Below are positions 21,156 to 59,376 of a stretch of DNA of 64,000 nucleotides, piece by piece. Under the pieces are notes generated by a model, which did no database searches, was not told the DNA's origin, and saw nothing but the letters and a program-made list of their open reading frames with translations. The position numbers were made by a program, and so were the translations under genes. The stretch comes from a phage: the sequence record PV808484.1. One strand, 5' to 3'. Positions within the stretch are counted from its first letter, which is position 1. The number at the start of each line of letters is the position of its first letter.

Positions 21156-21968
21156 TTACTTAGTCAAATGATCTTCTATCATTTTTATGAAAGCAGGATT
21201 GCTAAAAGCATCTGCTGCCTTTTCTCTATAAACAAAGACTCCTCTATCTTCGTAAAGAAGAGTTTCTTCGTAATTAATTCCTGGGTTAACAACAATCATT
21301 TTTGTACCCATATTAAGTGCAGGGAATAATTCCCAATTAAAATTGATAACTTGGTTTGAACATCCTACTACAACAACCAAATCTTGCATGGTCAAAGTAT
21401 CAAACAAGTGAGCCATATCTGCATACAAAGGTGCAGCCTCACCAAAAAATACAACATTAGGCTTCACCCAGTTATAATCATCTATGTTTATACTATTGTA
21501 ACCAATGTCTACCAGTGTTTTGTAATCTCCAGGATGCATACGGTAAACTACTTCAGGAAGATACCCGTGCACGTGAATAACAGAATCCCTGTCCACACCT
21601 GCTCGCTCTAGTAGATCATCAACGTTTGTTGTCAAGTTTACTACTTGGTTAGGATATTCCTTAAACCACTTTGCTATTTGAATATGTGCAGCATTAGGTT
21701 GTACATCTTTAAGCTCAACACGTCTTTTGTTATAAAATTCGTGTGTTTTGGCATACAAGTCCATACCGTTCTCGTCTACACCACCGACCACTGGAAGATC
21801 TGGAGATGTTCTCACACGATAACCTGCTTGGAAAGCTCCAATATCGCAGACCTCTTCTAAGTCATATTCTTCCCATAAGGCACGACCACTATCTGTGTCT
21901 GTTCGGAACGTTCGAATCCCACTGTCTGCACTTAAACCTGCGCCACTAACAAAAATTACTCTTCGCAT
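21156..21968 (-). CDS. sirtuin-like (Sir2/CobB family) NAD-dependent protein
   Basis: GAGLSADSGIRTFR, NVDDLLERAG, HVHGYL and VVFFGE match sirtuin signature blocks in order. Confidence 0.75.
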   Translation of the reverse strand: MRRVIFVSGAGLSADSGIRTFRTDTDSGRALWEEYDLEEVCDIGAFQAGYRVRTSPDLPVVGGVDENGMDLYAKTHEFYNKRRVELKDVQPNAAHIQIAKWFKEYPNQVVNLTTNVDDLLERAGVDRDSVIHVHGYLPEVVYRMHPGDYKTLVDIGYNSINIDDYNWVKPNVVFFGEAAPLYADMAHLFDTLTMQDLVVVVGCSNQVINFNWELFPALNMGTKMIVVNPGINYEETLLYEDRGVFVYREKAADAFSNPAFIKMIEDHLTK

Positions 21969-23299: not shown

Positions 23300-24289
23300 C
23301 TATTCCTCCATACATTTAAGAATATGTGCAATGACAGGTATAGTCCAACCGTTACCTAACATCTTATATGCTTGTGTGTTACTACTCACTTTAAAGTAAT
23401 CATCTGGCACACCTTGCAAGCGGCAACACTCTTTAACCGTTAACTTTCTATAATGTACGCCTTCACTCAATTTTTCAAAGGCATCTAGATATCTTCCAGG
23501 TGGAATGTAGGCTAATAGTACGTCTTTAGGCACAGTCGTGAGGCAACGAGTTTTTTCACTGTCCTGAACTTCCAAACAATGTACCAAACGATCAGTTTTA
23601 GATGTACTACGTTTGCCATTTTCATTAATTCTACGCCCATATATTGCTGCCGGATAAAAAACCAGTTGTCTGCGACTCTTTTCAAAATACTGTTCTATAT
23701 TACCACCTTTGGCATAATTTGCATCTATGCAATAAGCCTTATCTCTGTCTACAATACTATCATCTTCAATGATATCTTGCAACACTTCATTGGTAATCTC
23801 CCAGGGTTTTATTTCCCAGTTGCACCAGTATAAACGTTGTCTATTCTGTGCCGTGAAATCTGCGGAGTTAATGAATACGGGATCAACACCTAAGTAACTT
23901 GTGATCACGTTTTCCCACTCCACTTTCATCTTAACGTTTTCAAGCATGAACTTAACATTAGGATTAAACTTTTTAATATGTTCAAGAATTTCAACATATT
24001 CGAAGAATAGCTTAGATCGCGGATCTTGAAAGTTCAAACCCTTACCAGAAGAAGAGAAGCCTTGACACGGACTACCACCTAACAAAAGATCAATTTCTCC
24101 CCACGGGATATCCCATTCTCTCCATTTTGTAACATCACCTAACTGAATAATATCTGGAAAATTTGCTTGGCTTTCAGCTACGGCAAATTTGTCTAATTCT
24201 GAAGCGTAATATGTATCTACTTCAATACCTGCACTTTTTAGCGCAAGCATTCCTCCTGACATACCATCAAAAAGACTTAAAACTTTCAT
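23300..24289 (-). CDS. dcm: DNA (cytosine-5)-methyltransferase
   Basis: LFDGMSGG (motif I), GGSPCQGFS (motif IV), ENV (motif VI). Confidence 0.85.
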   Translation of the reverse strand: MKVLSLFDGMSGGMLALKSAGIEVDTYYASELDKFAVAESQANFPDIIQLGDVTKWREWDIPWGEIDLLLGGSPCQGFSSSGKGLNFQDPRSKLFFEYVEILEHIKKFNPNVKFMLENVKMKVEWENVITSYLGVDPVFINSADFTAQNRQRLYWCNWEIKPWEITNEVLQDIIEDDSIVDRDKAYCIDANYAKGGNIEQYFEKSRRQLVFYPAAIYGRRINENGKRSTSKTDRLVHCLEVQDSEKTRCLTTVPKDVLLAYIPPGRYLDAFEKLSEGVHYRKLTVKECCRLQGVPDDYFKVSSNTQAYKMLGNGWTIPVIAHILKCMEE

Positions 24290-49103: not shown

Positions 49104-49826
49104 TTAAGCAATGATTGCTGCGATATTAGGTTTAACAAAGGTAGATGGTTTCATAATTTTACCTTTGTCATCAAAGAATACATACACCTTTTGAACTTCG
49201 TTATATACAGCGTGTACCCCAGTATAAGAACCTTCTGCACGATCTTTGCTTCGCATCTCTATAGCATCACATTCTTTTTCAAGAGCTTCAATAATATCCT
49301 TAGTTTCCCAAATAGCCAGGAGTTGCTTCTTGGTAGGATATTTGGACTCATTGCTATTCAACACTTCACGCATAACCTTCTTCTCGTTATAAACAGAACG
49401 TACCAAAGTATCTCGTGCCATACGTGTAAGTGTAAGAGACATTAGGGCAAATTGCAAGTCATTTTCTACCATTTTATCAAATTCAATGATAACATCGTAA
49501 ATGTTTTCTGCCAGAACATCTCCTGTCGGCATTTCCAGAGCTTTATCAACACCTTCTTTACCAAAGAACATAAACGCCAGGTAGGATGCTACCACAAAAA
49601 TATCTGCTGCTGCATCAAGTAATTCAACGTGATCATTTTCCTGTGCTGCTGCTTGGAACTCTTTAAGTTCTTCTCGTACAAAAGAAAGTTGAGCTTCAAA
49701 CATCTCTTGAGTAAACTCTGGAGTTACTCCACCACGTGCCTTAGCATTCCAAGCAACAATCTGATCGGCAGCTTTGATAAAGAAGCTATTGTCCACTTTT
49801 ACTTGTTTGAAAAAATTCTCGATCAT
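49104..49826 (-). CDS. MazG-like nucleotide pyrophosphohydrolase (tentative)
   Basis: EELKEF and ELLDAAADIF acidic helices typical of all-alpha NTP pyrophosphatases. Confidence 0.4.
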   Translation of the reverse strand: MIENFFKQVKVDNSFFIKAADQIVAWNAKARGGVTPEFTQEMFEAQLSFVREELKEFQAAAQENDHVELLDAAADIFVVASYLAFMFFGKEGVDKALEMPTGDVLAENIYDVIIEFDKMVENDLQFALMSLTLTRMARDTLVRSVYNEKKVMREVLNSNESKYPTKKQLLAIWETKDIIEALEKECDAIEMRSKDRAEGSYTGVHAVYNEVQKVYVFFDDKGKIMKPSTFVKPNIAAIIA

Positions 49827-49835
49827 TGTTTCTCC

Positions 49836-50042
49836 TTATTTAAAATATTGTTCTAACAAAACACTAATGCGAACTACCGATTCGCCCATATACGCCCCAG
49901 CACAGAGGAAAACAACAAATCTACAAAAATTGCAGTACCATTTGTCAACTGGAAACGAGGCTAACATTATAATTGCAATAGCAATTAACATCATAAGAAC
50001 TGTTGCTAATACCATACTACCTCTTACTCTGCTGGTTCCCAA
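49836..50042 (-). CDS. small membrane protein
   Basis: hydrophobic core VLATVLMMLIAIAIIMLASF. Confidence 0.45.
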   Translation of the reverse strand: MGTSRVRGSMVLATVLMMLIAIAIIMLASFPVDKWYCNFCRFVVFLCAGAYMGESVVRISVLLEQYFK

Positions 50043-51139
50043 GTACCTGGAATCATCTTACGTACACGTACCCCAACAGGTTTAGTAGGAATACCTTCGT
50101 CTGAAAATTCTTCGTACTCAATTTCAACAAATTGACCAATAAGTGTCAAAGCATTTTCTTCTTTACGATAGTTAATGGTTTCATCTGAATCCTTACGCAT
50201 CAGGAATTCGACTACTTTACCATTTTCCATCTCGCCTGTCAATACCCCGTCACCATTTTTATCACGTTTTGCACTGACTACCTTAACTTCAAGAGTCTGC
50301 CGTGGTTTACGTTTAATAACATCATAAGAACGTTTATCAAACTCGTAAACACCTTGTGCGTTACGATACACAACACCTTCCGCTTTCTCATGCAGAGCTT
50401 TTGCATAGAAAGCATCAAACTGCTCTTGGTTTTCAATGTATTCTGTATGTACTACACAAATGAGTTCATCTAAACCTTTATCTTCAACAACTTCTTTTAG
50501 AGCAGCTAAAACTTGAACCCTCTTCTCAAATGGTACAGATGGCACAGGAACATCATATACATAGTATTTAAGAAGCGGAGTGTTAGCATTATGCTTTTTC
50601 CACGCACTATTAATTTGTTGAAGGCTAAGGACACCCAAACCAGCAAAAACTTCACCGTCAAGAGGATGACCAACTACTTCTTTAATGAAGGTTGGAATTT
50701 CTTTCCAGTGAGGTGGAAGTTTATATACCTCCCCAGCTTTAGATAAACATTCACCTTGCATGTTAATCATTGAACGTAGACCATTCAATTTATATTGTGC
50801 ATAACCTGGGAACAAAACACGATCAGCATAATCTTTATAATCCTGACATTTCATGGGTGTGGAAGGAACATGGTTTTCAGCTTCCTCTTTTGTTTTATAA
50901 TACCCACTCTTAAGTTGCTTTGTCCATTTGGCAAGAGCTTCTATTTCAGCTTGTTCTTCTGCTGTTGTTTCATTTGAGCGACCAATATTTTTAGGTTCTG
51001 CTGTATAAGATTTGCTAGTAATCTTTCCACCTAATTGACCATGAGCAACAGTTACAACACTACCTTCGGTATAGACTGACCACTGTTTAATTTTACCTGT
51101 AGAAGTTTTACCATATAATGTAGGATTAGTTTGTTTCAT
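50024..51139 (-). CDS. ATP-dependent DNA ligase-like nucleotidyltransferase
   Basis: start moved to Met with GGAGG RBS; motif I YKLNGLR (N where D is canonical), motif III HPLDGEV, motif IV EGVVYR, motif V DVIKRK. Confidence 0.7.
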   Translation of the reverse strand: MKQTNPTLYGKTSTGKIKQWSVYTEGSVVTVAHGQLGGKITSKSYTAEPKNIGRSNETTAEEQAEIEALAKWTKQLKSGYYKTKEEAENHVPSTPMKCQDYKDYADRVLFPGYAQYKLNGLRSMINMQGECLSKAGEVYKLPPHWKEIPTFIKEVVGHPLDGEVFAGLGVLSLQQINSAWKKHNANTPLLKYYVYDVPVPSVPFEKRVQVLAALKEVVEDKGLDELICVVHTEYIENQEQFDAFYAKALHEKAEGVVYRNAQGVYEFDKRSYDVIKRKPRQTLEVKVVSAKRDKNGDGVLTGEMENGKVVEFLMRKDSDETINYRKEENALTLIGQFVEIEYEEFSDEGIPTKPVGVRVRKMIPGTWEPAE

Positions 51140-51329
51140 CTTTAACCTCCAGTTGCGAAAGAACCCATTTAGCCATTTCAATTTCACCGTGTAGTCTGCC
51201 TAGTTCATAGGCATCATCAATATTACCACCAGTGTAATCATCCACCATAAAGTAAGGATCTTCGCTACTGTTAGGTGCGTTTGCAATTCTCGTTAGTTCT
51301 TCAATAAATGTCATAGTCACCCTTACCAA
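51126..51329 (-). CDS. hypothetical protein
   Basis: ORF track. Confidence 0.4.
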   Translation of the reverse strand: MVRVTMTFIEELTRIANAPNSSEDPYFMVDDYTGGNIDDAYELGRLHGEIEMAKWVLSQLEVKDETN

Positions 51330-51547
51330 TTATACACAAGAGTTTGAATTTCTTCCATTAAGTCTTCAAGATCTGTATCAACGTATTCAGAAGATGTTGC
51401 CATAAAGTATGTAATCATTGTGAACCCTTCTGAAGAAAGGGCATCAAGGATATCATTAAACATATCTTCCATTTCAGTATTCTCACCAAATGAGAATAAC
51501 ATTTGTTGATCTTCGCTTACACCTTTAACATAGATAGCTGTACTCAT
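51323..51547 (-). CDS. hypothetical acidic protein
   Basis: ORF track. Confidence 0.4.
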   Translation of the reverse strand: MSTAIYVKGVSEDQQMLFSFGENTEMEDMFNDILDALSSEGFTMITYFMATSSEYVDTDLEDLMEEIQTLVYNW

Positions 51548-51550
51548 ATA

Positions 51551-51871
51551 TTAATCCTTAAGACGTTCATTTAAATCTGCAATAACATCACCTAAATCTT
51601 CACATTCCAGTGTTAATTCTGAAACTTGTCCACTCAAATAACAAACTTCTTCATTTAGATCTGAAATAATGTTTTCTAATGAATCTACTTGGTCATCATA
51701 TGAACGTTTTGTTTCTTCAAGTTCTTCCGTAAGATCATTAATCAAATGGAGCAAAGATAAGATATAACCGTCTCCTGTCGCGTTCCTCCACTCACTTCCG
51801 TAGCGATAAATAATAATTTCACCATTATCGACTACTGTAAAATACTTACCTTCACCAGAATAAATTTCCAT
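51551..51871 (-). CDS. hypothetical protein with coiled-coil-like C-terminus
   Basis: ORF track. Confidence 0.45.
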   Translation of the reverse strand: MEIYSGEGKYFTVVDNGEIIIYRYGSEWRNATGDGYILSLLHLINDLTEELEETKRSYDDQVDSLENIISDLNEEVCYLSGQVSELTLECEDLGDVIADLNERLKD

Positions 51872-51880
51872 ACGCTCTCC

Positions 51881-52285
51881 TTATTGTAGCTTAAGTGAAC
51901 TGCGAAGACGTTTCTCTTGCTGATCACGAATATGTTGTGGAACCTCATGAATTGAGTCGTTACCGTGCCTATTTTCAACAACTAAAGAGATAACTTGATA
52001 ACCAAACTCTTCAGCAAGAGTAAAATAAGGTTTAAGTTCTTTCTCTGTGGTTGAAGTGTTAGAGACAATAATCTTTTTAATATTAGACTGCATAGCATCA
52101 CGAACAATGACTCGACACCATGCGTGTGCTTTACCTACATTCTCTGGCTTCCAATCGTAAACACCACTTTCTGTGTAATGATATTGATCTGCCTCACAGA
52201 TAGGCCAATAACCTTCAGAAATAATTTCTGCTACTGTAGATTTACCTGCACCTGAAACACCACGTAAAATGATAAGTTGTTTCAT
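51881..52285 (-). CDS. P-loop polynucleotide kinase-like protein
   Basis: ILRGVSGAGKST Walker A; short kinase-only protein. Confidence 0.6.
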   Translation of the reverse strand: MKQLIILRGVSGAGKSTVAEIISEGYWPICEADQYHYTESGVYDWKPENVGKAHAWCRVIVRDAMQSNIKKIIVSNTSTTEKELKPYFTLAEEFGYQVISLVVENRHGNDSIHEVPQHIRDQQEKRLRSSLKLQ

Positions 52286-53218
52286 TTAGCCTCCAAAGAA
52301 GTTTTCTATTTCTTTACGTCGCTCTTGTGGATCTAGAGCAGCCCATTGAACCTTCGTAAAATTATTTCGAAGCCATTCTAGCAAAGTATAATATTCTTCG
52401 TCAACAATTTGTTTAGCATTTTTTGGGTTGTCCCAAATCATATCCCACTTCTTATTGCCACCACGCATAAGGAATTTCTTAGCAAGATAGTATGGTGACT
52501 TAATCTTTAAAAGTAAGTTAAACGGATAGTTTGTTTCACGAACAACAAAGCCTTCGTGTCTACAATGTTTAGACATTTCAACAACATCTGAAAATTTAAT
52601 CATTGGATAAACTTCAGGACGTTTAAACTTTGTAATAGATGCAATCCCATCAAGAACACCTTCAGGTAACATGAAACTTGTCCCATCAAGATTTTGAATT
52701 CTTGCTCCAATTAAGTATGCGCCTGGTTCTTCTTCGACAATATGTGGATCAGAAGGATCACAGATTTCAAAAAGGAAAGTTGCTTTTGCACTTTCTGTCC
52801 ACTTAATGAAATACTCTATGTCGTCACACTCGGAAACAATACGGTTCTTTGCCATAATTGCAAAATCTGATTCTAGGCTCCCTGTTGTTGATACAACAAG
52901 TTTCCCTTTGTACACACCTACAGATGCCATAAAACCGTTTACTTTACGGACAGCATCTACAAGCTGGTCTGCTGGAAGATCTGTACCATTCTCAAAACGA
53001 TTAAAGATTTTAGTAAAAGGCCAAATAACAACATTGTCTTCTGAGTCAACAACCAACCCACGACAATATAGAAGCCGTTTGTCAACGTTCCACAAATTAT
53101 CCCAGAATACATTGTTTTTGTATTTAAGTACAGCAAGACCAGCATACTCTCCAGATTTAACTTCTTTTTTATGCACTAAACCTTTTGCAATCAGGTCATC
53201 ACAATTGAACTTAGCCAC
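52286..53218 (-). CDS. RNA ligase-like nucleotidyltransferase
   Basis: motif I KVNGF, motif IV EGFVVR, motif V KIKSPYY. Confidence 0.6.
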   Translation of the reverse strand: MAKFNCDDLIAKGLVHKKEVKSGEYAGLAVLKYKNNVFWDNLWNVDKRLLYCRGLVVDSEDNVVIWPFTKIFNRFENGTDLPADQLVDAVRKVNGFMASVGVYKGKLVVSTTGSLESDFAIMAKNRIVSECDDIEYFIKWTESAKATFLFEICDPSDPHIVEEEPGAYLIGARIQNLDGTSFMLPEGVLDGIASITKFKRPEVYPMIKFSDVVEMSKHCRHEGFVVRETNYPFNLLLKIKSPYYLAKKFLMRGGNKKWDMIWDNPKNAKQIVDEEYYTLLEWLRNNFTKVQWAALDPQERRKEIENFFGG

Positions 53219-53219
53219 C

Positions 53220-53771
53220 TTAATCTCCTTTGATTATCTTATGATGGTCTACAACAACAATATCACGCTTATCCATAATAGAGATGATTTCGTCAAAATG
53301 CAAGATTTTCCCGTGTGCATCCCAACCAACATCCAACATCTTCCCATACAAATGATCAGGGAATGATCCGTGAGAGTGTCCGTGTAGCATGATTGATCCA
53401 TGCCCTTGTTTATTCCAGGCAGCCATAGGGTAATGGCTTAAGACGAAAAACAGCTTCTGATATTTCACTTCGTCATAATAAACCACTTCTCCATACTCTG
53501 CAAGCACTTTTCTGTGTTTACTGTAATCATGGTTCCCAACACAGTAAGTAATATCCCCTTGGAGACGGGAAGCAATCTTACGGGTATCTTCTTCAGTCCC
53601 GAAACAGAAGTCCCCAAGATGGTACATCTTTACTCCTGGTGTTGTGGCACATTTATTCCATGCTTCGATCAGTGCTTCTGTCATATGCTCCATATCTTCC
53701 CACGGGCGATATTCAGGAGCAAACTCTCGGATACGTTTGTGCATAAAATGCAAATCACTTGTAATAAACAT
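53220..53771 (-). CDS. calcineurin-like metallophosphoesterase
   Basis: SDLHFMH, HLGDF and GNHDY motifs. Confidence 0.7.
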   Translation of the reverse strand: MFITSDLHFMHKRIREFAPEYRPWEDMEHMTEALIEAWNKCATTPGVKMYHLGDFCFGTEEDTRKIASRLQGDITYCVGNHDYSKHRKVLAEYGEVVYYDEVKYQKLFFVLSHYPMAAWNKQGHGSIMLHGHSHGSFPDHLYGKMLDVGWDAHGKILHFDEIISIMDKRDIVVVDHHKIIKGD

Positions 53772-54133
53772 TAGTATAATCCCTCGCTGAATAGTTCACT
53801 GTCGTGACCATTTCTTTCATAGTTAATTTGTTTGGCGTTATCTGCAATGATATAAGCATCTTTGCGACTCCACCAATTATAATACTGATCAATAAACCCT
53901 TGATTATCAGGTAAGCAAAACAGTTTATCGATCAATCCTGCATCTTTTAAAACATTAAGTTGTGCAGATAGTACAGGATTTGCATGCCTAACACAAGGAA
54001 TAATTAACTCTTCGCCATTGTTGAGAATATACTTATTCGCAGCGCAGACTATAACACGTTGAGCATAGTGATCCTCACCAATCCAAGTAAGAGGTTGGTA
54101 ACAAATATCATGTTGATTAGTAGCGCACATCAA
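53771..54133 (-). CDS. hypothetical protein
   Basis: ORF track. Confidence 0.45.
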   Translation of the reverse strand: MMCATNQHDICYQPLTWIGEDHYAQRVIVCAANKYILNNGEELIIPCVRHANPVLSAQLNVLKDAGLIDKLFCLPDNQGFIDQYYNWWSRKDAYIIADNAKQINYERNGHDSELFSEGLY

Positions 54134-54288
54134 TTTTCTCCATACTCTTTTAATTTATCAGCGAAAAAACTGTAGTCAGGAAGTAAAAGATCATTACTAG
54201 TATCGCTCCAGTTTTCTTCCTCTCTATAGATAAAATGCCCTTCATCCTCTTCTTGCTCTGACCAAACTGAATAATGCATAATACCTAC

Positions 54289-54663
54289 TTAATAGTTAAC
54301 ACGTTTAATTTCAACACCATAGGATGAAATAAAATTTTCCTTAGCTAACATATATTTACCAGCAGCAGAAGGATTTGATGTATGAACATAGATAGTTTTA
54401 AGAGCATCCCATTCACCCGCGTACAACATACATTCTACATCCAAGAACGCATGATATCCTTCTTGATCTTCTCCAAGATCATTGTCGAAGTGTATCTCTG
54501 AGATAGTATTGAAATTATCTTCATCTGAAACAAAAGCTAACCAATCCTCAAAAGATTTTAACCAAATGGCATCCTCATAACCATAATCTTTAGGATTTCT
54601 TAAATCGTCTAACCAAAGAATTTTAGCCACTATCAACCCCCTGCCTGTTTCTCTTCTTTCCAA
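54289..54663 (-). CDS. hypothetical protein
   Basis: ORF track. Confidence 0.45.
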   Translation of the reverse strand: MERRETGRGLIVAKILWLDDLRNPKDYGYEDAIWLKSFEDWLAFVSDEDNFNTISEIHFDNDLGEDQEGYHAFLDVECMLYAGEWDALKTIYVHTSNPSAAGKYMLAKENFISSYGVEIKRVNY

Positions 54664-56677: not shown

Positions 56678-57571
56678 ATGAAAGTTAGTATTCTACATGG
56701 TGTTGACTGTTATGTTACTGATGTAGACGTTAAAGTGTTTACATTCTCTGGTGGAGAACAACATGTTCAATTAGATACGAACCTGTCAGGTTTCAATCAT
56801 GCTACAGACAGAATCTTACTCACATTAGAAGTAAGATCTGCTAAAGACTTGATGACTTTGGTTATGACTAAGAATGCATTGGACAATATGCTATATCATA
56901 AACCATATTGTGTTGATTTACTCATGTTGTATGTACCGTATGCACGACAAGACAGAGTGTGTGAGCCTGGGGAAGCATTTGGAGTTAAAGCATTTGCTTC
57001 TATAATTAACTCATTAAATTTCTCACGTGTTATCGTTGCTGATCCACACAGTGATGTTACTCCAGCAGTGTTTGACAGACTCTGTGTAATACCTCAAGAA
57101 GAGATTGCTTACGAAACTTTAAAATGGAAGTTACGTATGGAGAATTTTGCTCTTGTTAGTCCTGATGGTGGTGCTCTTAAGAAAATATTTAAATTATCTA
57201 AGAAAATGTCTTTAGATGTGTTCTGTGCAGAGAAGGTTAGAGATACCGCAACAGGTGCTATTGTTCGTACAGACATTTCTGTACAGGATTTCAATAAGCG
57301 TAACCTGATGATCGTAGACGATATCTGTGATGGTGGTAGAACTTTTATCGAATTGGCTAAAGTGCTACGTGCTCGTAACGCAGGTAAGATTGAGCTATAT
57401 GTTACACACGGTATCTTTTCTAAAGGTCTTAAAGAGTTAAGTGAGCACTTTGACTGCATTCATTCTCTTAATATATGGGAAGATAACATCCAAGAAGATT
57501 CCGGTGTTCTTGTTAAGAATCAGTCAGATTTGCAACAACAAATTGTATCTCCATACGTGTGGAATTTTTAA
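56678..57571 (+). CDS. prs: ribose-phosphate pyrophosphokinase (Prs)-like enzyme; candidate ADP-ribose pyrophosphokinase
   Basis: YVPYARQDR, VIVADPHSD and MIVDDICDGGRTF phosphoribosyltransferase-type blocks aligned to Prs. Confidence 0.8.
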   Translation: MKVSILHGVDCYVTDVDVKVFTFSGGEQHVQLDTNLSGFNHATDRILLTLEVRSAKDLMTLVMTKNALDNMLYHKPYCVDLLMLYVPYARQDRVCEPGEAFGVKAFASIINSLNFSRVIVADPHSDVTPAVFDRLCVIPQEEIAYETLKWKLRMENFALVSPDGGALKKIFKLSKKMSLDVFCAEKVRDTATGAIVRTDISVQDFNKRNLMIVDDICDGGRTFIELAKVLRARNAGKIELYVTHGIFSKGLKELSEHFDCIHSLNIWEDNIQEDSGVLVKNQSDLQQQIVSPYVWNF

Positions 57572-57642: not shown

Positions 57643-59376
57643 ATGAATATTTTTGCACCTTTTGCTACTGATTGGTATAAACCTGGTCACAAGCAGATGT
57701 ACAACCAAAATACAAAACTTATTTTCTCTAATTTAACTCCTCGTAATGATAAAAACTTTGCACACTATGCAGATCGTGAAGCACGTGGTGTCATTGTTTT
57801 AGGTATTCGTAGAGCAGTAACCGATGCTCTTGTAACTATGTGGGACGGCTTCTTTAAAATGTCTCGTAGTGCAGCAGTAAATAAATTTTATCGTATGTCT
57901 AAAAATGCATTAGGTGCTTCTGCTCCTTCTGCTGAATGTTGGGGAGAATTGCACGATTTAGGTTATCTTCCGCTGGAAGTTCGATCTCTGCCAGAAGGTG
58001 TTTTGTGTCCTATTGGTGTTCCTGTGTTTACTGTGCATAATACTTTAGAAAAATTCTTTTGGTTAACTAATTATGTGGAAACACTGTTGTCAGATGAAAC
58101 TTGGAAGACAATGACTAATGCCACAGCAGCTTTTCAGTATAAGCGTATCGCTATGGCATATGCGATGGCAACGTGTGATAATATTGATCACGTTAACTTC
58201 CAGTGTCATGACTTTAGCCTACGTGGTTTAAGTAATATCGAAGATGGTTATAAGAGTGGTATCGCTCATTTGGCATCGTTCACAGGAACAGATAATATTC
58301 TGGCTATTGAAACTGTACATGATTATTATGGTATTGATTATGATCAGTTTGTTGCAGGTTCTATTCCGGCTACAGAACATTCAGTAGCAACGACTAACAT
58401 TGGAGCTATTGTTGAAGATCTGAAGGAACATTTCCCACGTCTTAAAGATGATGTAGATTGGCTTCGTTATGTAGCAGAAAAAGAGTTTCTTCGTCGTTAT
58501 ATTGAAGAAATTGTTCCAGAAGGTTTTTGTTCATATGTAGCAGATTCTTATGATTACTGGGCTGTATTGACTAACATTCTGGTAGAGTTGAAAGATTCTA
58601 TTATGTCACGAAATGGTCGTCTTGTTATTCGTCCAGACTCAGGAGATCCGGTTAAAGTTGTTGCAGGATACAATATTGAATCTTTTGATAACTATGAAGA
58701 CCTTTTAAATAATGGTATTGCGACAGCCACTGAAGTAGTTCATTTGGCTGATGTTAATAAGTATTACAATGTTCTTCAGGATTGCAGTGTTGCTGACTGT
58801 ATTGATGAAACTTATGAAATTCCTTATTATGAAGCAGTAGGTTCTATTCAAATCCTTTGGGAAGTGTTTGGTGGTACTATCAACCGAAAAGGCTACAAGG
58901 TTCTTGATCAGCATATCGGTATGATTTATGGTGATTCTATTACTGTTGAACGAGAACACGAGATCTTACGCCGACTGAAGAAGAAAGGTTTTGCAGCTTC
59001 CAATATTGTATTTGGTGTTGGTAGTTATACTTATCAGTTCAATACACGAGATACTTTCGGTTTTGCTGTTAAAGCAACAGGTAGTATCATCGGTGAACAC
59101 GAAATTTTGGTAAGTAAGGAGCCTAAAACTGATCCTGGTAAACGCTCTGCAAAAGGCTTTATTAAGGTTGTTAAGGATACCAATGGTAATCTCTCTCTTG
59201 TAGATAATCTTTCTTTTAAAGATATCCAGGATGAAGACAATGAGTTACAAGTTATCTTCAAGAATGGTAAGGTTATTACACCACAAGTAGAAGGACGTGA
59301 TGAAACATTTACTGATATCCGCAACCGTGTTGACGTAGAGGTTCTTCGTACTATGGGAACCATCCAGGTTGACTAA
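57643..59376 (+). CDS. nadV: nicotinamide phosphoribosyltransferase (NAMPT/NadV)-like enzyme
   Basis: N-terminal FATDWYKPGHKQMY block typical of NAMPT; 577 aa with extensions. Confidence 0.85.
   Translation: MNIFAPFATDWYKPGHKQMYNQNTKLIFSNLTPRNDKNFAHYADREARGVIVLGIRRAVTDALVTMWDGFFKMSRSAAVNKFYRMSKNALGASAPSAECWGELHDLGYLPLEVRSLPEGVLCPIGVPVFTVHNTLEKFFWLTNYVETLLSDETWKTMTNATAAFQYKRIAMAYAMATCDNIDHVNFQCHDFSLRGLSNIEDGYKSGIAHLASFTGTDNILAIETVHDYYGIDYDQFVAGSIPATEHSVATTNIGAIVEDLKEHFPRLKDDVDWLRYVAEKEFLRRYIEEIVPEGFCSYVADSYDYWAVLTNILVELKDSIMSRNGRLVIRPDSGDPVKVVAGYNIESFDNYEDLLNNGIATATEVVHLADVNKYYNVLQDCSVADCIDETYEIPYYEAVGSIQILWEVFGGTINRKGYKVLDQHIGMIYGDSITVEREHEILRRLKKKGFAASNIVFGVGSYTYQFNTRDTFGFAVKATGSIIGEHEILVSKEPKTDPGKRSAKGFIKVVKDTNGNLSLVDNLSFKDIQDEDNELQVIFKNGKVITPQVEGRDETFTDIRNRVDVEVLRTMGTIQVD

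What the first reader, a model, noticed from the sequence alone, without database searches (positions are those of the whole stretch)
50024..53218. Both ligase-family enzymes carry Lys-x-Asn-Gly instead of the canonical Lys-x-Asp-Gly motif I
The DNA-ligase-like protein reads YKLNGLR and the RNA-ligase-like protein reads RKVNGF at the adenylylation motif. KxNG is the form I recall from Trl1-type RNA ligases, but it is unusual for a DNA ligase that otherwise has typical motifs III (LDGEV), IV (EGVVYR) and V (KRK). The first enzyme may therefore not be a conventional DNA ligase.
Basis: seen in the sequence. Interest (0 to 1): 0.4.

Follow-up and report, generated by a model that had tools for sequence, protein, structure and literature searches.

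The report
Asn-variant motif I in phage ligases
Both ligases of this phi92-like E. coli phage do read Lys-x-Asn-Gly at the adenylation site, but this is a common variant in the DNA ligase family (shared with the proven African swine fever virus DNA ligase) and a fixed signature of the RNA ligase family, so the finding is largely ordinary.

Summary
The DNA ligase (50024-51139, minus strand) reads YKLNGLR and the RNA ligase (52286-53218, minus strand) reads RKVNGF at motif I. The window is a phi92-like E. coli myophage (Justusliebigvirus), about 99% identical to deposited genomes.

The inference that the first enzyme may not be a DNA ligase is not supported. Its nearest solved relative by sequence and fold is the African swine fever virus DNA ligase, a proven nick-sealing enzyme. 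That enzyme has the same N-terminal domain and the same motif I (KRNGVR, Asn153). Within the phage family, Asp and Asn alternate freely: 104 Asn and 16 Asp among close homologues, 48 Asn and 95 Asp among 150 cluster representatives, and at least 24 switches on a rough tree.

In the RNA ligase family, Asn is invariant (119/119 and 70/70). The enzyme sits in a conserved RNA-repair module with a kinase and a metallophosphoesterase, plus a cREC gene nearby. This type of neighbourhood has already been described.

The two Asn residues are not coupled. In 22 of 24 related loci the DNA ligase has Asp next to an Asn RNA ligase.

One lead remains: the RNA ligase also has an invariant His where fungal Trl1 has its 2'-phosphate-binding His.

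The parts
50024..51139 (-). ATP-dependent DNA ligase, 371 aa, with ASFV-type architecture (N-terminal domain, adenylation domain, OB domain)
   Evidence: PF01068 E 6.5e-11; phrog_114 E 7.7e-75; profile against PDB gives 6IMJ E 1e-24; AF2 pLDDT 92 and Foldseek match to 6IML/6IMN/6IMK at TMq 0.78
50774..50791 (-). DNA ligase motif I, KLNGLR (Lys117 is the inferred adenylation nucleophile; Asn119 replaces the usual Asp)
   Evidence: aligned to AsfvLIG K151/N153
50648..50662 (-). DNA ligase motif III, LDGEV
   Evidence: invariant D161, G162, E163 in A2
50363..50380 (-). DNA ligase motif IV, EGVVYR
   Evidence: invariant E254, G255, R259
50306..50314 (-). DNA ligase motif V, KRK
   Evidence: invariant K276, K278
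52286..53218 (-). Rnl1/Trl1-type ATP-dependent RNA ligase, 310 aa
52931..52945 (-). RNA ligase motif I, KVNGF (Lys92 is the inferred nucleophile; Asn94 is invariant in the family)
52742..52744 (-). His159 codon, 8 residues after the motif III Glu151; invariant; aligned by hhalign to Trl1 His227
52463..52477 (-). K248-F-L-M-R252, basic residues on the first helix after motif V; nearly invariant
51881..52285 (-). P-loop kinase, 134 aa; likely polynucleotide 5'-kinase
   Evidence: PF13671 E 1.3e-9; phrog_2071 and phrog_505; within 3 kb of the ligase in 62/70 loci; annotated as polynucleotide kinase in MZ501084
53220..53771 (-). Calcineurin-like metallophosphoesterase, 183 aa; likely heals the RNA 3' end
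   Evidence: PF12850 E 3.3e-4, below the curated cutoff; phrog_547 E 4.8e-55; within 3 kb of the ligase in 65/70 loci
54289..54630 (-). cREC (cyclic-phosphate processing receiver) domain protein
   Evidence: PF20274 E 4e-14; next to the ligase in 10/70 loci
49104..49826 (-). MazG-like nucleotide pyrophosphohydrolase; part of the published rV5-type neighbourhood
   Evidence: PF01503 E 3.2e-7; phrog_671; PMC9503650
21156..21968 (-). Sir2-family protein, homologue of the sirtuin that lies beside the ligases in rV5-like phages; here about 30 kb away
   Evidence: tblastn 56% identity to the EspYZU15 Sir2; PF02146 E 1.3e-22

Best explanation
The first enzyme is a working ATP-dependent DNA ligase of the ASFV/phage type (N-terminal DNA-binding domain, adenylation domain, OB domain). 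It most likely seals nicks by the usual three steps: Lys117 is adenylated, AMP is transferred to the 5'-phosphate, and the 3'-OH attacks. Asn119 in motif I is a tolerated, frequently recurring alternative to Asp in this family. It does not mark a change of substrate.

The second enzyme is an Rnl1/Trl1-type RNA ligase in which Asn at the same position is a fixed family signature. It is the sealing part of a conserved phage RNA-repair module: a P-loop kinase to phosphorylate the 5' end, a metallophosphoesterase (with cREC in some phages) to heal the 3' end, and the ligase. The likely role is to repair tRNAs cut by host anticodon nucleases.

The presence of Asn in both enzymes of this phage is a coincidence of lineage.

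Shown: homology, fold, motif conservation, Asp/Asn statistics and gene linkage. Inferred: catalytic activity, substrates and biological role.
For: DNA ligase:
- PF01068 hit and phrog_114 E 7.7e-75.
- Best PDB relative is AsfvLIG, by phmmer (E 8e-7) and by profile (E 1e-24, covering profile positions 37-361). KlnGlR aligns to K151-R-N153-G-V-R.
- The AF2 model (pLDDT 92) matches the DNA-bound AsfvLIG structures over their full length (TMq 0.78-0.79, 404-414 alignment columns).
- AsfvLIG is a proven nick-sealing ligase with Asn153 (PMC6344480).
- Motif I residue counts: 104 Asn / 16 Asp in 120 homologues. Asn mostly at 45% identity or above, Asp in the ~28% relatives that still have the N-terminal domain. 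48 Asn / 95 Asp among the 150 best representatives at 50% clustering. At least 24 Asp/Asn changes by Fitch parsimony on an NJ tree.
- Neighbouring genes are DNA-metabolism genes: RdgC, MazG, exonucleases, thymidylate synthase, thymidine kinase.

RNA ligase:
- PF09511 hit.
- Profile hit to T4 Rnl1, E 2e-10; hhalign probability 97%.
- Asn invariant in 119/119 homologues and 70/70 viral loci.
- Kinase within 3 kb in 62/70 loci and metallophosphoesterase in 65/70, in varying gene order.
- cREC gene beside the module.
- The rV5-type neighbourhood is described in PMC9503650.

No coupling between the two enzymes: 22 of 24 loci pair an Asn RNA ligase with an Asp DNA ligase.
Against: - No enzyme of this phage clade has been assayed.
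- The proven Asn-bearing relative is from a eukaryotic virus at about 21% identity.
- The ASFV authors list Asn153 among four residues important for catalytic efficiency in an unusually error-prone ligase, so the Asn may not be functionally silent.
- The Asp/Asn counts come from top-scoring database samples, and the parsimony count rests on a rough NJ tree.
- For the RNA module, the kinase and phosphoesterase have only weak similarity to characterised end-healing enzymes.
- The RNA ligase lacks the motif Ia lysine that is essential in T4 Rnl1.
Confidence: 0.85

Rival explanations
1. The DNA ligase seals DNA, but Asn119 together with Leu173 gives it ASFV-like properties. These would be low fidelity at mismatched nicks or relaxed acceptance of RNA-containing nicks, for example in removing or joining primers.
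For: AsfvLIG is error-prone, and its authors single out Asn153 and Leu211 in the adenylation domain. The phage enzyme has the equivalents of both: Asn119 and the invariant Leu173 in LSLQ.
Against: The two OB-domain residues of the ASFV set (Leu402, Gln403) are Thr352 and Lys353 here and vary across the family. The ASFV paper states that the basis of low fidelity remains elusive. Frequent Asp/Asn flips among close relatives argue against a large functional consequence.
Confidence: 0.1
2. The first enzyme is not a DNA ligase at all. It would be an RNA ligase or another nucleotidyltransferase that only resembles DNA ligases.
For: KxNG is otherwise best known from Trl1 RNA ligases. The enzyme lies about 1 kb from an RNA-repair module.
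Against: The top 47 Foldseek hits are DNA ligases (the first non-ligase, an mRNA capping enzyme, is at rank 48), and the full length matches a DNA-bound DNA ligase. It has an OB domain and the ASFV DNA-binding N-terminal domain. No RNA ligase family scores. Relatives with Asp are interleaved with those with Asn. The phage already has a separate RNA ligase.
Confidence: 0.03
3. The RNA ligase works like fungal and plant Trl1. It would require or prefer a 3'-OH/2'-phosphate end made by cREC or the phosphoesterase and leave a 2'-phosphate junction. That phosphate would later be removed by the phage sirtuin or by host KptA.
Against: Overall sequence is closer to T4 Rnl1 (hhalign 97%, E 1e-10) than to Trl1 (71.5%, E 3.6e-5). 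The near-universal healing partner is a metallophosphoesterase (65/70), which in other systems yields 2'-OH/3'-OH ends. cREC and Sir2 were found next to the ligase in only 10 to 11 of 70 loci. The K248/R252 to Arg334/Arg337 correspondence was not aligned by any tool, and no 3D superposition was possible.
Confidence: 0.13

Closest known systems
African swine fever virus DNA ligase (AsfvLIG, NP419L; PDB 6IMJ/6IMK/6IML/6IMN)
   Same: Three-domain layout with the same N-terminal DNA-binding domain. Motif I is K-x-N-G-x-R (Asn153 corresponds to Asn119). Leu211 corresponds to Leu173. Motifs III, IV and V and the OB domain are present. Full-length structural match at TM 0.78.
   Different: About 21% identity and about 40 residues shorter. 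The OB residues Leu402/Gln403 are Thr352/Lys353 here. The host and context differ: a eukaryotic virus and base excision repair versus a phage with its own replication genes. Fidelity of the phage enzyme is unknown.
Minimal ATP-dependent DNA ligases (Lig E, PDB 4D05/6GDR; Chlorella virus ligase, PDB 2Q2T)
   Same: Adenylation and OB core with motifs I to V (E 2.4e-19 and 6e-16; Foldseek E about 1e-18).
   Different: They have canonical KxDG and lack the N-terminal domain.
T4 RNA ligase 1 (Rnl1, gp63; PDB 2C5U/5TT6/9DO4)
   Same: Best sequence relative of the 310-aa enzyme. Shared N-terminal subdomain residues: Arg53, Lys70 and Phe72 correspond to Arg54, Lys75 and Phe77. Shared motifs III, IV and V. 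Both partner with end-healing enzymes for tRNA repair.
   Different: T4 has KEDG. The motif Ia Lys119 is Thr112 here. T4 has no His after motif III. The phage enzyme is 64 residues shorter, with a different and shorter C-terminal helical module. The healing partner is a separate kinase plus a metallophosphoesterase rather than the T4 Pnkp with its HAD phosphatase.
Fungal/plant tRNA ligase Trl1, ligase domain (Rnl6; PDB 6N0T, 6N67, 8RBJ, 9QW7)
   Different: Weaker sequence relationship (hhalign 71.5%). The domains are separate genes rather than one polypeptide. Healing is by a metallophosphoesterase or cREC rather than a 2H phosphodiesterase. The Arg-Arg pair is not demonstrably conserved. Dependence on a 2'-phosphate is untested.
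rV5-type phage RNA-repair neighbourhood (Iyer et al. 2022, PMC9503650)
   Same: T4-like tRNA ligase, cREC, nucleotide kinase, MazG and a calcineurin-like phosphoesterase are all present between 49104 and 54630.
   Different: Here the sirtuin is about 30 kb away (21156-21968) rather than adjacent. A DNA ligase and three small ORFs lie inside the cluster.

Membership tests
ATP-dependent DNA ligase (covalent nucleotidyltransferase superfamily) | Motif I, KxDGxR, with the nucleophilic Lys | tested here: met
   KLNGLR, with Lys, Gly and Arg all present. Asp is replaced by Asn, as in AsfvLIG. Both Asp and Asn occur within the family.
ATP-dependent DNA ligase (covalent nucleotidyltransferase superfamily) | Motifs III, IV and V in the adenylation domain | tested here: met
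   LDGEV, EGVVYR and KRK. They are invariant in A2. PF01068 scores 42.7 bits against a cutoff of 26.2.
ATP-dependent DNA ligase (covalent nucleotidyltransferase superfamily) | C-terminal OB-fold domain | tested here: met
   The full-length structural match to DNA ligases includes the OB domain. The PF14743 hit is weak (16.9 bits against a cutoff of 28).
ATP-dependent DNA ligase (covalent nucleotidyltransferase superfamily) | ATP-dependent sealing of nicked duplex DNA | not testable with these tools
   Needs a biochemical assay.
AsfvLIG-type ligase (N-terminal domain, adenylation domain, OB domain) | N-terminal mixed alpha/beta DNA-binding domain in place of the helical DNA-binding domain | tested here: met
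   The HMM alignment starts at profile position 37, matching Asfv residue 74 (EGKNLGKKNATT against EPKNIGRSNETT). Foldseek aligns 404-414 columns at TMq 0.78. The model has a beta-sheet followed by a long helix at residues 60-77.
AsfvLIG-type ligase (N-terminal domain, adenylation domain, OB domain) | The four 'unique' nick-site residues Asn153, Leu211, Leu402 and Gln403 | tested here: inconclusive
   The Asn153 and Leu211 equivalents are present (N119, L173). The Leu402/Gln403 equivalents are T352/K353.
AsfvLIG-type ligase (N-terminal domain, adenylation domain, OB domain) | Low fidelity at mismatched nicks | not testable with these tools
   Needs kinetic assays.
T4 Rnl1 family | Rnl1-type nucleotidyltransferase domain with the N-terminal subdomain residues Arg54, Lys75 and Phe77 | tested here: met
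   R53 and K70 are invariant and F72 nearly invariant, and all three align to the T4 residues. hhalign probability 97%.
T4 Rnl1 family | Motif Ia lysine (Lys119) | tested here: not met
   Thr112 occupies the aligned position (VSTTGS against FKSKGS). Thr is found in 70/70 loci.
T4 Rnl1 family | Rnl1-specific C-terminal domain that confers tRNA specificity | tested here: inconclusive
Trl1 ligase domain (Rnl6) | KxNG motif I | tested here: met
   KVNG; Asn in 70/70 loci. The Trl1 motif is taken from PMC6379707.
Trl1 ligase domain (Rnl6) | His-Arg-Arg triad that binds the 2'-phosphate | tested here: inconclusive
   His159 aligns to His227. K248 and R252 are conserved, but no tool aligned them to Arg334/Arg337.
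Trl1 ligase domain (Rnl6) | Fusion to the kinase and 2H cyclic phosphodiesterase domains | tested here: not met
   The kinase is a separate gene. The phosphoesterase is calcineurin-like and cREC is separate.
Trl1 ligase domain (Rnl6) | Requirement for a 2'-phosphate at the 3' end | not testable with these tools
   Needs ligation assays with defined RNA ends.
rV5-type phage RNA-repair neighbourhood (PMC9503650) | Linked T4-like tRNA ligase, cREC, nucleotide kinase, MazG, sirtuin and sometimes a calcineurin-like phosphoesterase | tested here: met
   All are found. The sirtuin is in the same window but 30 kb away.

The most novel reading that the evidence does not exclude
The phage RNA ligase family defined by invariant Asn94, His159, Lys248 and Arg252 may be a prokaryotic-virus counterpart of the fungal/plant Trl1 ligase. 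It would seal 3'-OH/2'-phosphate ends produced by cREC or the phosphoesterase. The resulting 2'-phosphate junction would be cleared by the phage sirtuin or by host KptA (Tpt1). That would give bacterial Tpt1 homologues a natural substrate, which has long been missing.
Probability: 0.13. Interest if true: 0.7.

Novelty: new member of a known kind. Interest (0 to 1): 0.22.

Why it matters
For the DNA ligase the result mainly prevents a wrong conclusion. Asn in motif I is a normal state in a very large phage ligase family (3454 clusters at E <= 1e-30), and that family shares the N-terminal domain once described as unique to the ASFV ligase. The phage enzymes could therefore serve as easy-to-handle models for studying the ASFV-type ligase.

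For the RNA ligase, the invariant Asn and His shared with Trl1 give a concrete, testable lead on end specificity in a widespread phage tRNA-repair module. If that lead held, it would connect phage RNA repair to 2'-phosphate chemistry and to bacterial Tpt1/KptA.

Tried and rejected
1. R2D ligase from Cronobacter phage CR9, as a possible characterised phage homologue. I fetched the genome and translated CR9_264. It is a T4-like ligase with a helical DNA-binding domain and EKMDGLY, so it is not a relative. The paper itself is not held.
2. A single-sequence PDB search with the RNA ligase found nothing. A profile search was needed.
3. A library search linking AsfvLIG to bacteriophage ligases returned one unrelated paper. 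Yutin and Koonin 2009 already place the ASFV ligase among bacterial and phage ligases.
4. The idea that Asn in both enzymes is a coupled adaptation is rejected: 22 of 24 loci pair an Asn RNA ligase with an Asp DNA ligase.
5. PDB searches with the kinase and the phosphoesterase were uninformative. The best hits were an uncharacterised Aquifex protein and T4 Pnk at E 0.54.
7. The Trl1 sequences used for hhalign were taken from the PDB alignment printout. Only the printed PDB sequences were used afterwards.
Full report
**What the window is.** The region 49800-54200 is 98-99% identical to deposited phi92-like E. coli myophages (Justusliebigvirus, Stephanstirmvirinae), for example JohannJBalmer MZ501084. 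In those records the genes are already annotated as ATP-dependent DNA ligase, RNA ligase, polynucleotide kinase and phosphoesterase.

**Checking the observation.**
- The ORF list shows YKLNGLR, LDGEV, EGVVYR and KRK in the ORF ending at 50024, and RKVNGF in 52286-53218. Both genes are on the minus strand.
- The DNA ligase starts at the ATG at 51139, giving 371 aa. That ATG is preceded by GGAGG, homologues are 371 aa, and the JohannJBalmer annotation is 1116 nt. The longer GTG ORF is not the gene.
- Motif I lies at 50774-50791 (KLNGLR) in the DNA ligase and at 52931-52945 (KVNGF) in the RNA ligase.
- HMM alignments confirm these are the true motif I positions. K-L-N-G aligns to K151-R-N153-G of the ASFV ligase. 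K-V-N-G aligns to K-E-D-G of T4 Rnl1.

**The DNA ligase.**
- It matches PF01068 and phrog_114 (E 7.7e-75).
- A profile of 30 homologues (A2) finds the African swine fever virus ligase as the best solved relative, at E 1e-24. It ranks ahead of Lig E (2.4e-19) and Chlorella virus ligase (6e-16). The alignment runs from the N-terminal domain (EPKNIGRSNETT against EGKNLGKKNATT) to the end of the OB domain.
- The AlphaFold model is confident (pLDDT 92). It matches the closed, DNA-bound AsfvLIG structures over their full length (TMq 0.78-0.79, 404-414 alignment columns). Ligases that lack the N-terminal domain match only the core.
- AsfvLIG is a biochemically proven, error-prone nick-sealing DNA ligase. 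Its authors list Asn153, the motif I residue, among four 'unique' active-site residues, and they describe its N-terminal domain as a novel fold essential for DNA binding (PMC6344480).
- The phage enzyme shares the Asn153 and Leu211 equivalents (N119 and the invariant L173). It does not share Leu402/Gln403, which are T352/K353 here.
- Yutin and Koonin (PMC2806865) had already placed the ASFV ligase among bacterial and phage ligases.

**How common Asn is in this DNA ligase family.**
- Among the 120 best homologues (46-99% identity), 104 have Asn and 16 have Asp.
- In IMG/VR loci, Asn dominates at 45% identity or above. Relatives at about 28% identity still align from residue 6-7, so they have the N-terminal domain, and these have Asp.
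- An exhaustive profile search found 3454 clusters (at 50% identity) with E <= 1e-30. Among the best 150 representatives, 95 have Asp and 48 have Asn, interleaved down the ranking.
- On a rough NJ tree of 142 of them, Fitch parsimony needs at least 24 Asp/Asn changes.
- A Seunavirus relative with the same architecture has KLDGVR.
- Asp to Asn is a single-base change (GAY to AAY). This position is also His in T4 Rnl2 and Asn in Trl1, so it is variable across the superfamily.
- I conclude that Asn119 is a tolerated alternative and gives no evidence against DNA ligase function. The surrounding genes are DNA-metabolism genes: MazG, RdgC, exonucleases, thymidylate synthase and thymidine kinase.

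**The RNA ligase.**
- It matches PF09511. The PHROG label 'tail fiber attachment catalyst' is inherited from the T4 gp63 annotation.
- A profile (A1) hits only T4 Rnl1 in the PDB (E 2e-10). hhalign gives 97% probability to T4 Rnl1 and 71.5% to Trl1-LIG.
- Asn in motif I is invariant: 119/119 database homologues and 70/70 IMG/VR loci down to 30% identity.
- Also invariant are R53, K70, E151, E222, K238 and K240, which correspond to the T4 Rnl1 and Trl1 catalytic residues. T112 is invariant too and replaces the motif Ia lysine of T4 Rnl1. H159 is invariant. K248 and R252 are each conserved in 69/70 loci.

**Gene context.**
- In the 70 loci, a homologue of the 183-aa metallophosphoesterase lies within 3 kb in 65, and a homologue of the 134-aa P-loop kinase in 62. 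Gene order varies. This is a conserved heal-and-seal module.
- The window also has a cREC (cyclic-phosphate processing) gene at 54289-54630 and MazG at 49104-49826. A Sir2-family gene lies at 21156-21968. Its homologue sits next to the ligases in rV5-like phages.
- Iyer et al. 2022 (PMC9503650) described exactly this rV5-type neighbourhood. They proposed that the sirtuin removes 2'-phosphates in the manner of KptA.

**No coupling between the two Asn residues.** In 24 loci a homologous DNA ligase lies beside an Asn RNA ligase. In 22 of them the DNA ligase has KxDG. Only the two phi92-like loci have KxNG.

**The remaining lead.**
- Trl1 enforces its need for a 2'-phosphate through His227, Arg334 and Arg337 (PMC11404444). 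Asn150 also contacts the sulfate thought to mimic the 2'-phosphate.
- Using Trl1-LIG sequences read from the PDB printout, hhalign aligns FEICDPS-DPHIV with AELCDDSFEEHIL. This places the invariant His159 on His227. T4 Rnl1 has no His at that position.
- K248 and R252 sit on the first helix after motif V, where Trl1 carries the two arginines. No tool aligned them, and I could not superpose coordinates.
- Against a Trl1-like mechanism: overall sequence is closer to T4 Rnl1. The near-universal partner is a metallophosphoesterase, which would normally give 2'-OH/3'-OH ends. cREC and Sir2 were detected beside the ligase in only 10 to 11 of 70 loci.
- I rate this reading at about 13%.

**Verdict.** The main inference, that the first enzyme is not a conventional DNA ligase, is not supported beyond the fact that it has the ASFV-type rather than the textbook architecture. 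The finding is largely explained by known biology. Interest is low, with one modest testable lead on the RNA ligase.

Noticed in passing
window 52889-52891 (Thr112 codon of the RNA ligase): The RNA ligase family has an invariant Thr (70/70 loci) where T4 Rnl1 has the essential motif Ia Lys119 and Trl1 has Lys169 (VSTTGS against FKSKGS and CSKHSTG). It is unclear which residue takes over that lysine's role.
   Followed up: partly
proteins P0246, P0269, P0279, P0292, P0293, P0326 (homologues of the gene at window 50024-51139): Several family members are 700-785 aa long. The three scanned (P0246, P0292, P0326) carry an intein (splicing domain plus a LAGLIDADG endonuclease) inserted close to motif I of the DNA ligase.
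   Followed up: partly
L001:3001-4296 (Cronobacter phage EspYZU15) and other rV5-like ligases: Vequintavirinae ligases of the same architecture are about 430 aa long, with an insertion of about 60 residues in the adenylation domain. tblastn splits them into two pieces. They have KLDGVR rather than KLNG.
   Followed up: no
window 56678-57571 (+) and 57643-59376 (+): A PRPP synthetase-like gene and a nicotinamide/nicotinate phosphoribosyltransferase-like gene (NAD+ salvage) lie just beyond the RNA-repair cluster. In the near-identical JohannJBalmer record they are followed by a tRNA array of at least 14 genes. NAD+ supply could be relevant to the Sir2 gene.
   Followed up: partly
window 21156-21968 (-): This Sir2-family gene is 56% identical to the sirtuin that lies next to the DNA and RNA ligases in rV5-like phages. 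In this phage it has moved about 30 kb away, two genes downstream of a C-5 cytosine DNA methylase gene (23300-24289).
   Followed up: partly
window 53771-54133 (-) and 51126-51871 (-): Small conserved ORFs of unknown function lie inside the repair cluster. They match phrog_839 (120 aa), phrog_18076 (106 aa, coiled-coil-like), phrog_16431 (74 aa) and phrog_24346 (67 aa). None has a Pfam hit above its curated cutoff (only sub-threshold coiled-coil-type matches for the 106-aa ORF; the 67-aa ORF was not scanned against Pfam).
   Followed up: no
window 50024-51139 (family level): The N-terminal domain called a completely novel fold in the 2019 ASFV ligase paper is shared by thousands of phage ligase clusters (3454 at E <= 1e-30). 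It has no Pfam model: residues 1-110 gave no hit.
   Followed up: partly
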